Source of the DNA: Candidatus Multivorans sp.
Lineage (GTDB): Bacteria; Acidobacteriota; Thermoanaerobaculia; Multivoradales; Multivoraceae
Length of the DNA stretch: 64,000 nt
Direction of reading: 5' to 3'
Assembly: GCA_965205095.1 (NCBI GenBank)
Contig: OZ242040.1
Coordinates: forward strand, 1,607,787 to 1,671,786
A program made the position numbers and the translations under genes. Each line of letters opens with the position of its first letter. Within the stretch, counting starts at the first letter, position 1. Of this stretch, positions 1-20,296 are shown piece by piece. The notes under the pieces are model-generated. The model saw nothing but the letters and a program-made list of their open reading frames with translations, was not told where the DNA came from and did no database searches.

Positions 1-977
1 GCGGACCGCTCACGCTGCGCCGCGTAGGCCTCCTGCCAGGGCGCGAGACGTCGCAGTTCCGCGAGGACCTCGCCTGCCAGCCACGCATCGGCGGCAGCGG
101 CCCCGTCGGCCCCGGCAGCACCGGCAGCACCGGCAGCACCGGCAGCACCGGCAGCACCGAACGAGACTGGACACGACCAGCCGCCGTCGTCGTCATCGTC
201 AACAGCAGGCGCGTCGTCTGGAAAGTCCTCCAGGACGACCGGACCGTCCCGGCGCTCCAGCAACCCGAGCGCCGCCCGCAGGACGCGGCGCTGGAAGTCC
301 GGCTCGTGAGGCGCGCCGAACGGCCGTCCCAGCTCGAACGGCACCCACAGGAACCTGGGCAGCTCCATCCGCTCCGTGTTGACCCGCACCAGGCTGATGC
401 CCGTCGTCGCGATGCCTTCATCTTCCAGGAAGTGACTTACCGCGCCCACGGCGCGGGTGCAGTTCGGTCACACGGGGCAGAGGCAGACCGCCTCCACCTC
501 GTCCTCCCTGAGCCGCGCGGCGAGCTCACGCACCGTCGGTTCGATCGCCTCGGGCGGCCAACCCGCGCCCATCAGCGAGTAGTGGAAGTCGGCCACCGAG
601 CCGATGGCCCCTTCGCTCTCCAGCTCGCGCAGGCGATCCAGCGGGAACACGACGTTCACGTCCTCGCGAAAGCCGGTCCGGTCGAAGTGAACGGACGAGT
701 GCGTCATCGTCAGGTCGCTGGTCGAGATGGAGCCCGGGATCACCCGGTAGCTCAGATCGACCGTCGAGAAGGCCCGGTCGCCCACCCGGTGCAGGCCGGC
801 CGAAGTCACCAGCGCCACGCGCCGCTCCGCCAGCGGCGGACCATCGACCCACGGCCGCGTCGCGAACGGCACGCACTCCTTCGCCACCACGTGGGCGGCT
901 TCGACTTCGGGCATGTCGGACAAACGGACCATCGCGTCTCGGACTGCCCCGCCGCCGGACGCCCGCGGGGCTGACAC
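1..977 (-). CDS. Selenoprotein B of the glycine/betaine/sarcosine/D-proline reductase family (GrdB/PrdB-like). Partial: the frame reads through an in-frame TGA at 468-470 and runs off the window start.
   Basis: The ORF-track piece 468-977 ends ...EVEAVCLCPV at a TGA. The same frame continues without stops to position 1 (PNCTRAVGAVSHFLEDEGIATTGISLV...). The segment VEAVCLCPV-U-PNCTRAV aligns with my recollection of the PrdB Sec region (VDAVVMTAG-U-GTCHRSAV, a UxxC motif). Upstream motifs (VALVTSAG..., FPLDRLRELESEGAIG) also fit the family. Confidence 0.75.
113..157 (-). repeat. 9-bp tandem repeat (GGCAGCACC, about 5 copies) encoding a (GAA)n linker inside the selenoprotein B gene
   Basis: Direct reading of positions 113-157. 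Confidence 0.8.
438..460 (-). promoter_or_regulatory. Putative bacterial SECIS hairpin about 11 nt 3' of the UGA (mRNA CCGCGCC-GUG-GGCGCGG, GC-rich stem with GU in the apical region)
   Basis: Perfect 7-nt inverted repeat seen directly in the sequence downstream of the in-frame TGA on the coding strand. Confidence 0.45.
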
Positions 978-1039
978 AATCTAGCGGCTCGGGGCTGCCG
1001 GCCGCGAGGGAACTGGATGCGCCGGCGTCCCCGCTGCTC

Positions 1040-1125
1040 TATAGGATCAAACTGGGTGCGCCGGCGCCCCCGCCGGCTGTGGCCGCGGGTCTTCTGACCC
1101 GCGGAAGACAACGCGCCGCGAAGCG
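1040..1125. repeat. GC-rich REP/MITE-like element (type B core CTGGGTGCGCCGGCGCCCCCGCCGGC) in the intergenic region between the selenoprotein gene and gabD
   Basis: The same core recurs at about 8400-8480, 10140-10235, 10680-10765, 12725-12800 and 60525-60560. Confidence 0.6.
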
Positions 1126-1159
1126 GCGACCATTTCGGCCAACCGACAGGAAGTGACCC

Positions 1160-4430: not shown

Positions 4431-5642
4431 TCACAAGAGTTGCGACAGCAACGTTCGCACCGGGACGATCAAGGGCCTTCCCGGCTCCTCGAAGCAGCTC
4501 CGGTCGACGTAGTCAGCCGAGACGGAAACCTGGAAGGCGAAGGGCGCCCGCAGACGGTCCTGGTAGTAGCGGAGGTGAGGGCTCAGCGAGTCGCCGCCGT
4601 GCTTGACTTCGACAAGGATCCAGGGCTCGCCATCCCGCACGACGATCAGGTCGACTTCGCGCTTCTCCTTGTCTCGCAAGTAGGCGAGTTCGAAGTCGCC
4701 CAAGCCGAGATCGTTCCAGCCGTCGACGGCCTTGGCGAGGTGGCAGGCAACGAAGGTCTCGGCGCGCTGGCCAGGGTCCTCGACGCCCGACCAGTCCCGC
4801 AGGTACCACTTGGGCTCCTTGCGCAGCGACCGAGAGAGGTTGCGAAACCAGGGGCGCACCAGGAAACCCAGGTGAAGGTCAGCGAGCGTGGCGACCCAGC
4901 GGCGCACGGTGTCGGCCGCCACCCGGACCTGCCTGGCGAGATTGTCGTAGACGATCTGCTGTCCAGAGCGGTCGGAGAGCAGACGCACCAGGACCTCCAA
5001 CTGGTCCAGTTGCTGGATTCGGGTCAGGTCTCGCACCTCCTCGCGGACCAGTTGCGCGAACCGGAGAGTCCGCCAGCGACGGGTGAAGCGGATGTCGCGC
5101 CTCAGGTACGGCTCGGGAAAACCGCCGTGCTGCCAGAGCGCCTCGAAGTCGCCGTCGTCAATCTCCCGGGGCGAACCGGGGAGGCCAGGCGGCTCGGCCA
5201 GATCACGCGGCGCAACCTCAGCCACCGAAAAGGGGTGCATCCGGTAGAGGAAGTAGCGCCCCATCAGGCTGTCGCCACCGCGCCGGTAGACATCCAGCCG
5301 ACTGCTGCCAGTGACCAGAATCTTCATCCGGTCCCCGTAGCTGTCGAAGAGCCCCTTGAGGAAGGACTTCCAGCGCGCGAACTTGTGCAGCTCGTCGAAC
5401 AGCACGACGGGCGGAGTCTCGGACAAGCGGTCCAGCTCCAACGCCTCGACAACTCGCCGGGGACCGGCGAGCACGAGTTCCCGATGGTCGAGATCGTCCC
5501 AGTTGAGGGTTGCATCGGCCCTGGCGCGACAGGTGGTCGTCTTGCCGACTTGCCGCGGGCCGCTGACGAAGGCCATCTGCCGATTCCGGCCGAGATGCTC
5601 CCTCAGGATCGGGTCATAGATGCGCGGTGATTCCGAGTCCAC
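4431..5642 (-). CDS. AAA+ ATPase with a C-terminal DUF4143-type domain
   Basis: Walker A GPRQVGKTT, Walker B VVLFDELH, then a conserved DUF4143-like C-terminal region. Confidence 0.75.
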   Translation of the reverse strand: MDSESPRIYDPILREHLGRNRQMAFVSGPRQVGKTTTCRARADATLNWDDLDHRELVLAGPRRVVEALELDRLSETPPVVLFDELHKFARWKSFLKGLFDSYGDRMKILVTGSSRLDVYRRGGDSLMGRYFLYRMHPFSVAEVAPRDLAEPPGLPGSPREIDDGDFEALWQHGGFPEPYLRRDIRFTRRWRTLRFAQLVREEVRDLTRIQQLDQLEVLVRLLSDRSGQQIVYDNLARQVRVAADTVRRWVATLADLHLGFLVRPWFRNLSRSLRKEPKWYLRDWSGVEDPGQRAETFVACHLAKAVDGWNDLGLGDFELAYLRDKEKREVDLIVVRDGEPWILVEVKHGGDSLSPHLRYYQDRLRAPFAFQVSVSADYVDRSCFEEPGRPLIVPVRTLLSQLL

Positions 5643-19879: not shown

Positions 19880-20296
19880 TCACGCCGCCGTCAGACGCAC
19901 CCGTTCCCCGTCCAGTTCGAGCGTGGTCTTGGAGTAGGTCAGCTTCTGAACGATCTTGCCGTCCCTGAAGTGCAGAATATCGAGGCCGCGCCTCGCTTCA
20001 TGCTTGTCTCCCTGGCCCTTCTCGAACGAGGGCGAGTCGAGCTGCCAGCGGAAGAGCATCTTCTGCTCGACTTCGTCGATGAAGGTCTCTTCGGTCGTGA
20101 ACTTGAAGTCTCCATGATTGGCGAACCACGGCGCCCATGCCTCACGGAGACTCTCCTTTCCACGGACCGAGCCCCCGTTCCAGTTCTCGAAGTAGATCTC
20201 GTCGTGAAACAGGTCCATCACGCCGTCGAGGTCGTGCTCGTTCCAGGCAGCGCCCCATCTGGCGAACGCGCTGGCCATCTCGTCTCGTGTCAGCAT
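19880..20296 (-). CDS. SnoaL-like / NTF2-fold protein
   Basis: AWNEHDLDGVMDLFHDEIYFENW is a typical SnoaL_2/DUF4440 N-terminus. Confidence 0.65.
   Translation of the reverse strand: MLTRDEMASAFARWGAAWNEHDLDGVMDLFHDEIYFENWNGGSVRGKESLREAWAPWFANHGDFKFTTEETFIDEVEQKMLFRWQLDSPSFEKGQGDKHEARRGLDILHFRDGKIVQKLTYSKTTLELDGERVRLTAA

What the first reader, a model, noticed from the sequence alone, without database searches (positions are those of the whole stretch)
1..977. Selenocysteine-containing PrdB/GrdB-family reductase subunit that ORF callers truncate at the UGA
The minus-strand ORF stops at a TGA (468-470) immediately after ...AVCLCPV. The same frame is open for another 155 or so codons to the window edge. 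The residues around the TGA (CPV-U-PNC) reproduce the UxxC selenocysteine motif of D-proline/glycine reductase selenoprotein B. A GC-rich hairpin sits 11 nt downstream, where a bacterial SECIS is expected. The protein also carries a 9-bp-repeat-encoded (GAA)n linker and a long C-terminal extension, which is atypical for clostridial PrdB. A Sec-dependent reductase of this family in a high-GC, apparently non-clostridial genome is unusual, and its partner subunits lie outside the window.
Basis: partly seen in the sequence, partly recalled or inferred. Interest (0 to 1): 0.6.

Follow-up and report, generated by a model that had tools for sequence, protein, structure and literature searches.

The report
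PrdB-like selenoprotein gene, partner-less
This is a real selenocysteine-encoding gene that gene callers cut in two at its UGA codon, but it belongs to a family of "PrdB-like" selenoproteins already reported as abundant in marine bacteria, so it is a correct but fairly ordinary find whose actual enzymatic job is still unknown.

Summary
A minus-strand gene (ATG 932-930, running past window position 1) has an in-frame TGA at 470-468 (codon 155). It is followed by 155 open codons, a U-P-N-C motif, and a 17-nt hairpin that starts 11 nt after the TGA.

The TGA aligns exactly with the annotated Sec codon of a clostridial PrdB, and with Cys in full-length homologs. It is kept in every Sec-form homolog collected from about 80 species. 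Substitutions downstream are mostly synonymous, and the hairpin shows compensatory base-pair changes. More distant Cys-encoding forms lack the hairpin. So this is a genuine selenoprotein gene with a SECIS element.

- The family is widespread in non-clostridial bacteria. "PrdB" was among the most abundant selenoprotein families in the Sargasso Sea and GOS surveys.
- The C-terminal extension is a conserved helical domain found across the subfamily.
- No PrdA, GrdA or GrdE partner lies near the gene, here or in any of 102 homologous loci.

The protein scores below the PrdB and GrdB model cut-offs. It is therefore a stand-alone PrdB-like reductase of unknown substrate, often followed by a TauD-family dioxygenase gene. 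The source is a sponge-associated Acidobacteriota lineage (Ca. Multivorans clade). Sec machinery in this genome could not be checked.

The parts
1..932 (-). 5' 310 codons of the PrdB-like selenoprotein gene. The 3' ~120 codons lie beyond window position 1. Full length is 412 aa in L002 and 437 aa in L004.
   Evidence: Pfam GRDB 1.8e-12; TIGR04483 8e-31, with the alignment spanning the TGA. All homologs start MVRLSD.
468..470 (-). UGA codon 155, read as selenocysteine.
   Evidence: Aligns with Cys in full-length homologs (PVCPNCTR) and with the annotated Sec of P. acidaminophilum PrdB. TGA is kept at this site in 85/85 distinct Sec-form sequences.
459..461 (-). Cys158 codon (TGC), the resolving Cys of the U-P-N-C motif.
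   Evidence: Invariant in protein alignments A1 and A3. Varies only TGC/TGT in DNA alignment A4.
440..456 (-). SECIS-like hairpin: 6-bp stem (456-451 with 445-440) and loop C-G-U-G-G (450-446). An 11-nt spacer separates it from the UGA.
   Evidence: Covariation at three stem pairs. G invariant and U nearly invariant in the loop. Mean dG -11.8 kcal/mol in Sec forms against -3.2 to -8.8 in distant Cys forms.
432..471 (-). Clade-specific outer helix (GUGAC 471-467 pairing with GUCAC 436-432) that encloses the UGA and the SECIS stem.
   Evidence: MFE folds (dG -21.4). By inspection of alignment A4, the complementary 5-mers GUGAC...GUCAC occur only in the Acidobacteriota-clade rows, so this helix is not a family feature.
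112..159 (-). 9-bp tandem repeat x5.3 encoding (Gly-Ala-Ala)5, an insertion in the inter-domain linker.
   Evidence: TRF. Absent from L001-L003 and present, longer, in strain L004. It falls in the coil linker (residues 241-266) of the AF2 model.
933..1159 (.). Divergent intergenic region shared with the aldehyde dehydrogenase gene (1160-2662, +). Contains a 24-nt direct repeat x2 (1011-1034, 1050-1073).
   Evidence: No sigma-70 consensus match was found. A regulatory role is inferred only.

Best explanation
The locus is one intact gene for a roughly 430-aa selenoprotein of the PrdB/GrdB (Pfam GRDB) superfamily. UGA codon 155 is recoded to selenocysteine by a SECIS hairpin inside the ORF: an 11-nt spacer followed by a 17-nt stem-loop with G and U in the loop. 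Presumably this works through SelB and tRNA-Sec. Sec155 and Cys158 (U-P-N-C) sit between a beta-strand and the N-terminus of a helix, and most likely cycle between selenol/thiol and selenenylsulfide, as in PrdB.

Unlike D-proline or glycine reductase, the protein has no pyruvoyl (PrdA/GrdE) or GrdA partner. It carries instead a conserved C-terminal all-helical domain. I infer, but have not shown, that it is a self-contained selenol-dependent reductase. It would cleave or reduce a carbon-heteroatom bond in a small catabolic substrate, often in an operon with a TauD-family 2-oxoglutarate dioxygenase. The substrate is unknown.

Shown here: the recoding-site anatomy, its conservation, and the family placement. 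Inferred: the chemistry and the pathway.
For: **Read-through**
- Pfam and NCBIfam alignments span the TGA.
- The TGA aligns with Cys in 420-433-aa homologs and with the Sec of an annotated PrdB.
- None of 85 sequences has a stop in the 80 codons after the TGA. Substitutions there concentrate at codon position 3, for example 12/5/47 against L018 and 6/6/32 against L019.
- The five codons right after the TGA (P-N-C-T-R) precede any possible restart codon. Nearly all of their variation across the 85 sequences is at the third codon position.
- TGA is an ordinary stop for 11 of 23 long ORFs in the window, so the genetic code is standard.

**SECIS**
- Pair types in the helix: cols 21-37, GC 44 / CG 24; cols 22-36, CG 65 / UA 9 / AU 2 / GC 2; cols 23-35, GC 66 / CG 2.
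- Covariation score 0.235 against 0.097 in shuffles (0/500 reach it), and at most 0.064 for slid partners.
- 17 nt lie between the UGA and the apical loop, inside the 16-37 nt range quoted for bacterial SECIS (PMC10778597).
- Distant Cys forms have lost the hairpin. The closest Cys form (L087, TGT) keeps it.
- selA and selB sit next to the gene in one relative, L052.

**Stand-alone architecture**
- No PrdA-like hit in the window or the 102 homologous loci. No conserved partner cluster.
- AF2 model of a Cys homolog: pLDDT 82, pTM 0.84, with an N-terminal alpha/beta domain and a C-terminal helical domain.
- A TauD-family gene starts within 600 nt downstream, on the same strand, in 25 of 84 loci. 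This holds across phyla and for both Sec and Cys forms.
Against: - Sec-insertion genes (selA, selB, selC, selD) were not found in the 64-kb window, and the rest of the genome could not be searched.
- There is no experimental evidence for Se incorporation.
- The window hairpin alone is not more stable than shuffled sequence (z -0.62).
- The TauD linkage holds in only about 30% of loci. In one strain close to the window's (L004), the next called gene after it is a convergent DUF3604 gene, not TauD.
- Several close genomes have a terminator-like hairpin right after the gene, so operon coupling is not general.
- The proposed chemistry is by analogy only. No solved structure or fold match exists to constrain it.
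Confidence: 0.85

Rival explanations
1. It is the PrdB (or GrdB-type) subunit of a canonical D-proline or glycine/betaine reductase complex, and its PrdA/GrdE/GrdA partners are encoded elsewhere in the genome.
For: The best NCBIfam match is TIGR04483 PrdB at 8e-31. It shares 37% identity with an annotated PrdB, with an identical Sec position and UxxC motif.
Against: - Scores fall far below the curated cut-offs: 107 against 300, and TIGR01918 at 50.8 against 65.45.
- An extra conserved C-terminal domain of about 170 aa is absent from PrdB.
- No PrdA-like sequence in the window or the 102 homologous loci, whereas the control PrdB has PrdA fused directly upstream.
- The UxxCxxC motif of GrdB is absent, and the N-terminal ~220 aa of GrdB are missing.
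- The hosts' taxonomy (marine Alphaproteobacteria, sponge-associated Acidobacteriota) and the flanking catabolic genes give no sign of the clostridial Stickland-fermentation setting in which these reductases are known.
Confidence: 0.07
2. The TGA is a true stop. The locus encodes two separate proteins, a 154-aa N-terminal fragment and an independently initiated downstream ORF, or it is a pseudogene or assembly error.
For: Gene callers annotate it this way (154 aa plus 251 aa). Sec machinery is unverified for this genome.
Against: - The TGA is always in frame and is kept in 85/85 sequences from several phyla.
- Codons between the TGA and the first possible restart are under purifying selection.
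- Cys homologs are single polypeptides.
- The hairpin covaries, and is lost when the codon becomes Cys.
Confidence: 0.04
3. The UGA is read through without selenium, for example by near-cognate Cys or Trp insertion, in a lineage that has lost Sec decoding. The hairpin would then be a relic.
For: A relic hairpin does persist in a Cys-encoding relative (L087). One relative has CGA at the site (L041).
Against: Within the source clade (17 strains or species) the TGA and stem are retained while flanking synonymous sites vary. A lineage without Sec decoding would be expected to fix TGC/TGT, as L087 did.
Confidence: 0.04

Closest known systems
'Proline reductase PrdB' selenoprotein family of marine metagenomes (Zhang, Fomenko & Gladyshev 2005, PMC1088965; Zhang & Gladyshev 2008, PMC2398784). 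NCBI annotates it as 'glycine/sarcosine/betaine reductase selenoprotein B family protein'.
   Same: Same Pfam domain (PF07355) and UxxC Sec motif, with a mix of Sec and Cys forms. Abundant in aerobic marine bacteria. The homologs found here carry exactly that NCBI name.
   Different: Nothing essential. This is a member from a sponge-associated Acidobacteriota lineage, with a strain-specific Gly/Ala linker insert. The passages of those surveys read here only list the family under the name PrdB; they do not mention the missing PrdA partner or the extra C-terminal domain.
D-proline reductase subunit PrdB (TIGR04483), e.g. Peptoclostridium acidaminophilum or Clostridium sticklandii
   Same: Homologous over essentially the whole 237-aa PrdB (37% identity). 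The Sec position and UxxC motif are identical.
   Different: Scores below the equivalog cut-off. Has an additional conserved helical C-terminal domain of about 170 aa. No PrdA pyruvoyl proprotein nearby.
Glycine/sarcosine/betaine reductase selenoprotein B (GrdB/GrdF/GrdH; TIGR01917, NF040794, NF040795)
   Same: Homologous to their C-terminal half (profile positions ~222-413), with Sec at the equivalent position.
   Different: Lacks the N-terminal ~220 aa. Has U-P-N-C-T-R rather than UxxCxxC. No grdA, grdE, grdC or grdD neighbours. Far below the cut-offs.
Bacterial SECIS element, with E. coli fdhF as the paradigm (own knowledge: an 11-nt spacer plus a 17-nt upper stem-loop suffices, with G and U in the loop contacting SelB)
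   Same: Lies inside the ORF directly after the UGA. Has an 11-nt spacer and a 17-nt stem-loop, with conserved G-U in the apical loop. The 17-nt UGA-to-loop distance is within the 16-37 nt range (PMC10778597).
   Different: The sequence is unrelated. No bulged U is evident. Binding to SelB is untested. No Rfam family matches.

Membership tests
Bacterial selenoprotein gene (UGA recoded to Sec) | In-frame UGA aligned with Cys (or Sec) in homologs | tested here: met
   Aligns with Cys in PVCPNCTR homologs and with the Sec of an annotated PrdB.
Bacterial selenoprotein gene (UGA recoded to Sec) | Coding conservation continues in the same frame downstream of the UGA | tested here: met
   No stops in the 80 downstream codons in 85/85 sequences. 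Substitutions are biased to codon position 3.
Bacterial selenoprotein gene (UGA recoded to Sec) | SECIS stem-loop directly downstream, 16-37 nt from UGA to the apical loop, with G in the loop | tested here: met
   Helix at 456-451 / 445-440 with loop CGUGG and a 17-nt distance. Covariation at 3 pairs; 0/500 shuffles reach the observed score.
Bacterial selenoprotein gene (UGA recoded to Sec) | selA, selB, selC and selD present in the same genome | not testable with these tools
   None in the 64-kb window. selA and selB are adjacent to the homolog in L052. The Sec trait has been reported in Acidobacteria (PMC1794560).
Bacterial selenoprotein gene (UGA recoded to Sec) | Selenium demonstrated in the protein | not testable with these tools
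   Needs 75Se labelling or mass spectrometry.
Pfam GRDB (PF07355) superfamily | HMM score above the gathering threshold | tested here: met
   47.7 bits against a cut-off of 22.
D-proline reductase PrdB (TIGR04483 equivalog) | HMM score above the trusted cut-off | tested here: not met
   107.3 bits against a cut-off of 300.
D-proline reductase PrdB (TIGR04483 equivalog) | UxxC with Sec at the conserved position | tested here: met
D-proline reductase PrdB (TIGR04483 equivalog) | Adjacent prdA encoding the pyruvoyl proprotein | tested here: not met
   tblastn with a PrdA-like query found nothing at E<1 in the window or the 102 homologous loci. The control locus L103 has it fused upstream. No PrdA-, GrdE- or GrdA-type Pfam family (own knowledge: PF09338, PF04723) appears among the families listed for the called neighbour genes.
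D-proline reductase PrdB (TIGR04483 equivalog) | Single-domain protein of about 240 aa | tested here: not met
   412-437 aa with a conserved extra helical domain.
Glycine/betaine/sarcosine/D-proline reductase selenoprotein B subfamily (TIGR01918) and GrdB/F/H | HMM score above the cut-off; full-length ~435-aa architecture | tested here: not met
   TIGR01918 scores 50.8 against 65.45. The GrdF, GrdH and GrdB models score 46-60 against 600-800. Only the C-terminal half of each profile is matched.
Glycine/betaine/sarcosine/D-proline reductase selenoprotein B subfamily (TIGR01918) and GrdB/F/H | UxxCxxC motif | tested here: not met
   The sequence is U-P-N-C-T-R-A, with no second Cys at +6.

The most novel reading that the evidence does not exclude
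The PrdA-less, C-terminally extended clade is not a proline reductase at all. It would be a distinct, self-sufficient Sec (or Cys) dependent reductase of aerobic marine and sponge-symbiont bacteria. Its conserved helical C-terminal domain would replace the pyruvoyl subunit. It would work with TauD-family dioxygenases, and in Cys-form loci with GSTs and an FMO-like enzyme, in the catabolism of an abundant marine small molecule such as a betaine, sulfonium or sulfonate osmolyte. Since this is one of the most abundant marine selenoprotein families, that would define a new Se-dependent reaction in the ocean.
Probability: 0.35. Interest if true: 0.6.

Novelty: new member of a known kind. Interest (0 to 1): 0.3.

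Why it matters
As an annotation matter, the gene should be called as one ~430-aa selenoprotein rather than a 154-aa fragment plus a hypothetical ORF. The same error affects many homologs in public databases.

Biologically the selenoprotein call is not new, because the family has been catalogued since 2005. What remains open, and is sharpened here, is that the family labelled 'PrdB' in marine surveys:
- lacks the PrdA partner;
- carries an extra conserved domain;
- is recurrently linked to TauD-family dioxygenases.

Its name therefore probably misstates its function. The clean Sec/Cys contrast may also be useful as a teaching or benchmark case for SECIS prediction: the hairpin covaries in Sec forms, survives as a relic in a recent TGT convert, and is gone in older Cys forms.

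Tried and rejected
- **tRNA search.** ARAGORN on the window and on 60 loci found no tRNA-Sec.
- **Rfam.** Gathering thresholds on the whole window, and a permissive scan of 380-520, gave only noise.
- **Sel-gene motif scans.** SelD (GxGCGCK) and SelB (GHVDHGKT) motifs gave nothing in the window and one SelB in L052.
- **Single-sequence folding.** The hairpin is not significant against shuffles, so comparative analysis was used instead.
- **Neighbour clustering.** Naive longest-ORF clustering was noisy in high-G+C DNA: antisense ORFs won, and single linkage merged TauD with the target. It was replaced by targeted tblastn.
- **Literature.** A search for 'Candidatus Multivorans' and for 'PrdB-like/GrdB-like' found nothing specific.
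- **TGA reassignment.** Considered and rejected, because 11 of 23 long ORFs in the window end in TGA.
- **Sec machinery by protein search.** I ran no further search on SelA or SelB. The top-120 listing would almost certainly not reach this lineage.

Full report
**1. What is in the sequence**

On the minus strand an ORF runs from 977 (GTG), or more plausibly from ATG 932-930, to a TGA at 470-468. The same frame then stays open for 155 more codons to the window edge. All homologs begin MVRLSD, which fixes the start at 932 and makes the TGA codon 155.

The residues around it are ...AVCLCPV-U-PNCTRAVGA.... A perfect 9-bp tandem repeat (5.3 copies, 112-159) encodes (Gly-Ala-Ala)5. A scan of the whole 64-kb window for in-frame TGAs flanked by coding-like codon composition returned only this strong case. 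TGA ends 11 of 23 long ORFs in the window, so the genetic code is standard.

**2. Family placement**

I translated the frame through the TGA with Cys at the site. The protein matches Pfam GRDB (PF07355, 47.7 bits, cut-off 22) and NCBIfam PrdB (TIGR04483, 8e-31). The latter alignment covers residues 33-226 and so spans the TGA.

It stays below the curated cut-offs of every specific model:
- PrdB: 107 against 300.
- TIGR01918: 50.8 against 65.45.
- GrdB, GrdF and GrdH: 46-60 against 600-800.

An annotated PrdB from Peptoclostridium acidaminophilum was fetched as a control. It aligns at 37% identity over 227 residues (E 3e-36), and its own TGA sits exactly opposite window codon 155...TAG-U-GTC-HR against ...CPV-U-PNC-TR.

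**3. Homologs**

A database-wide search gave 3043 hits. They fall into two length classes:
- Many 154-aa 'proteins', which are gene calls truncated at the TGA.
- Proteins of 404-436 aa with Cys at the site (PVCPNCTR), which NCBI names 'glycine/sarcosine/betaine reductase selenoprotein B family protein'.

The alignment shows that the C-terminal part is conserved across the family. A near-identical locus on a 4.5-Mb circular metagenomic contig (L002) gives the complete gene at 412 aa. There the caller had split it into 154 aa plus 251 aa.

The (GAA)5 repeat is a 51-nt insertion absent from L001-L003. It is present, and longer, in strain L004 (93.5% identical).

A scan of one genome per species returned 80 loci. 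The closest are Acidobacteriota MAGs, several with sponge-metagenome-style isolate names: Thermoanaerobaculia, 'Candidatus Multivorans' and Holophagales. The rest are Alpha-, Beta- and Gammaproteobacteria, Acidimicrobiia and Hydrogenedentota. All but two of the 80 carry TGA at the site. The exceptions are L041, which has CGA, and L042, which is masked. Several Alphaproteobacteria carry tandem paralogs, each with its own TGA.

**4. Evidence for translation through the TGA**

- None of 85 distinct sequences has a stop in the 80 codons after the TGA.
- Differences from the window's sequence concentrate at codon position 3 (12/5/47 against L018; 6/6/32 against L019). Synonymous changes far outnumber non-synonymous ones, as they do upstream of the TGA.
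- The five codons directly after the TGA (CCN AAY TGY ACN CGN) precede any possible restart codon. Nearly all of their variation is at third positions.

**5. The SECIS element**

In an 85-sequence, gap-free alignment (A4) a helix pairs columns 21-26 with 32-37. In the window this is 456-451 with 445-440. The loop is C-G-U-N-R, with G invariant and U nearly invariant.

Three pairs show compensatory changes:
- Cols 21-37: GC 44 / CG 24.
- Cols 22-36: CG 65 / UA 9 / AU 2 / GC 2.
- Cols 23-35: GC 66 / CG 2.

The covariation score is 0.235 against 0.097 in shuffles (0/500 reach it), and at most 0.064 when partners are slid.

The spacer from the UGA is 11 nt and the stem-loop is 17 nt. The 17 nt between the UGA and the apical loop fall inside the 16-37 nt range quoted for bacterial SECIS (PMC10778597). 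From my own knowledge, this geometry matches the minimal E. coli fdhF SECIS.

Sec forms fold this segment at a mean of -11.8 kcal/mol (range -7 to -17.7). Distant Cys forms (TRATCAIA...) fold at -3.2 to -8.8. The closest Cys form (L087, TGT) keeps a perfect hairpin at -11.7, which looks like a recent Sec-to-Cys conversion. The window's hairpin alone is not significant against shuffles (z -0.62). The case rests on the comparative data.

**6. Sec machinery**

No tRNA-Sec and no selA, selB or selD were found in the window. The rest of the genome was out of reach. In one relative (L052, a Gammaproteobacteria MAG), Pfam-confirmed selA and selB lie 1.6-5 kb upstream of the homolog. Selenoproteins have been reported in Acidobacteria (PMC1794560).

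**7. Not a canonical PrdB or GrdB complex**

In the control clostridial locus a PrdA-like sequence is fused directly upstream of PrdB. Used as a tblastn query, that sequence finds nothing at E<1 in the window or in the 102 homologous loci fetched (about 1.1 Mb searched together with the two reference loci).

Beyond window position 1, the near-identical genomes encode a TauD-family dioxygenase, a branched-chain-type ABC transporter, an acyl-CoA ligase and a binding protein. Upstream lie a divergent aldehyde dehydrogenase, MmgE/PrpD and an acyl-CoA dehydrogenase. L002 has a terminator-like hairpin 16 nt after the stop codon.

No neighbour is conserved across most loci. The most recurrent is a TauD-family gene starting within 600 nt downstream on the same strand. 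It occurs in 25 of 84 loci with enough sequence, across phyla and for both Sec and Cys forms. Cys-form loci add GSTs and an FMO-like enzyme.

**8. Structure**

An AlphaFold2 model of the Cys homolog P0104 (pLDDT 82, pTM 0.84) shows three parts:
- An N-terminal alpha/beta domain. The C/U-x-x-C motif lies between strand 151-155 and helix 159-174, a typical redox-motif position.
- A coil linker at 241-266, where the window's GAA insert falls.
- An all-helical C-terminal domain at 267-394.

No solved structure matches by sequence or by Foldseek.

**9. Comparison with what is known**

'Proline reductase PrdB' (UxxC, pfam07355) was the third most abundant selenoprotein family in the Sargasso Sea (42 genes; PMC1088965). 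It was among the top families in GOS (235 Sec and 110 Cys sequences; PMC2398784). 'Proline reductase' selenoproteins were also listed in Anaeromyxobacter and Geobacter (PMC1794560).

So a Sec-containing member in a high-G+C, non-clostridial genome is expected rather than unusual. The gene is a new member of a known selenoprotein family.

The name is what looks doubtful. By curated thresholds, architecture and gene context, this clade is not PrdB proper.

**10. Verdict**

The claims of rarity, of an atypical extension and of off-window partner subunits are not supported.

The most likely mechanism has two parts:
- SECIS-directed Sec insertion at codon 155. This is well supported.
- A U-x-x-C selenenylsulfide redox centre in a stand-alone reductase of unknown substrate, sometimes coupled to a TauD-type dioxygenase. 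This is inference.

Interest is modest.

Noticed in passing
window 1011-1034 and 1050-1073: A 24-nt direct repeat in two copies (92% identical, 39-nt spacing), each with a GCGCCGGCG palindromic core. It lies in the 227-nt divergent intergenic region between the selenoprotein gene and the aldehyde dehydrogenase gene, and may be a regulator binding site.
   Followed up: partly
window 1114-1128 (minus strand): A terminator-like G+C hairpin followed by a T-rich tail, upstream of the selenoprotein gene on its own strand. No upstream gene on that strand would need terminating, so it could be a leader or attenuator element, or chance.
   Followed up: no
L087 8001-9215 (protein P0104): The closest Cys-encoding relative has TGT at the Sec site but keeps a perfect SECIS-type hairpin (dG -11.7). 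This looks like a recent Sec-to-Cys conversion with a relic SECIS.
   Followed up: partly
L041 802-1932: One Alphaproteobacteria MAG has CGA (Arg) in place of the TGA at the Sec site (PVRPNCTR). It is either a sequencing or assembly error or an inactivating change.
   Followed up: no
L022, L024, L027, L050, L058 (two TGA sites ~1.23 kb apart in each): Tandem paralogs of the gene in marine Alphaproteobacteria. Both copies have the in-frame TGA and a hairpin. In several of these loci (L022, L024, L058) the flanking ORFs belong to clusters that look like glnD, murJ and trpS by eye; these were not Pfam-checked.
   Followed up: partly
L052 617-4379 (minus strand): selB and selA (Pfam-confirmed) lie immediately upstream of an M19 dipeptidase gene and the PrdB-like selenoprotein gene in a Gammaproteobacteria MAG. 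This is physical linkage of Sec machinery to this family.
   Followed up: yes
L030 and L038 (about 5.6-12.9 kb): In some marine Alphaproteobacteria the gene heads a cluster with four to five TauD-family dioxygenase paralogs and an FAD_binding_2 flavoprotein, next to ORFs that resemble hydantoinase/oxoprolinase A and B subunits and an acyl-CoA ligase. The TauD and flavoprotein calls are Pfam-confirmed; the others are by eye. It looks like a dedicated catabolic island of unknown substrate.
   Followed up: partly
L103 3684-5708 (Peptoclostridium acidaminophilum plasmid): In the control organism a PrdA-like proprotein sequence is fused in frame to PrdB in one ORF up to the Sec TGA. The plasmid gene table lists only the prdB part.
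   Followed up: no
L104 4887-7272 (Roseomonas haemaphysalidis plasmid): A shorter 302-aa 'selenoprotein B family protein' with no in-frame TGA sits convergent to a gene annotated as the protein adenylyltransferase SelO.
   Followed up: no
window 4431-5642 (minus strand), compared with L001-L003: An AAA_14/DUF4143 ATPase gene lies between the acyl-CoA dehydrogenase and MmgE/PrpD genes. The same gene is present in L002, L003 and L007, although in L002 and L003 it lies on the far side of the acyl-CoA dehydrogenase gene. In L001 that neighbourhood instead holds a PNPOx gene and a DUF6364/PIN toxin-antitoxin-like pair. This is a small variable island among strains.
   Followed up: no
window 20115-20117 (plus strand): The only other in-frame TGA passing the coding-composition filter. 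It is weak, with 55 codons upstream and 25 downstream and no redox motif, and is probably chance.
   Followed up: no
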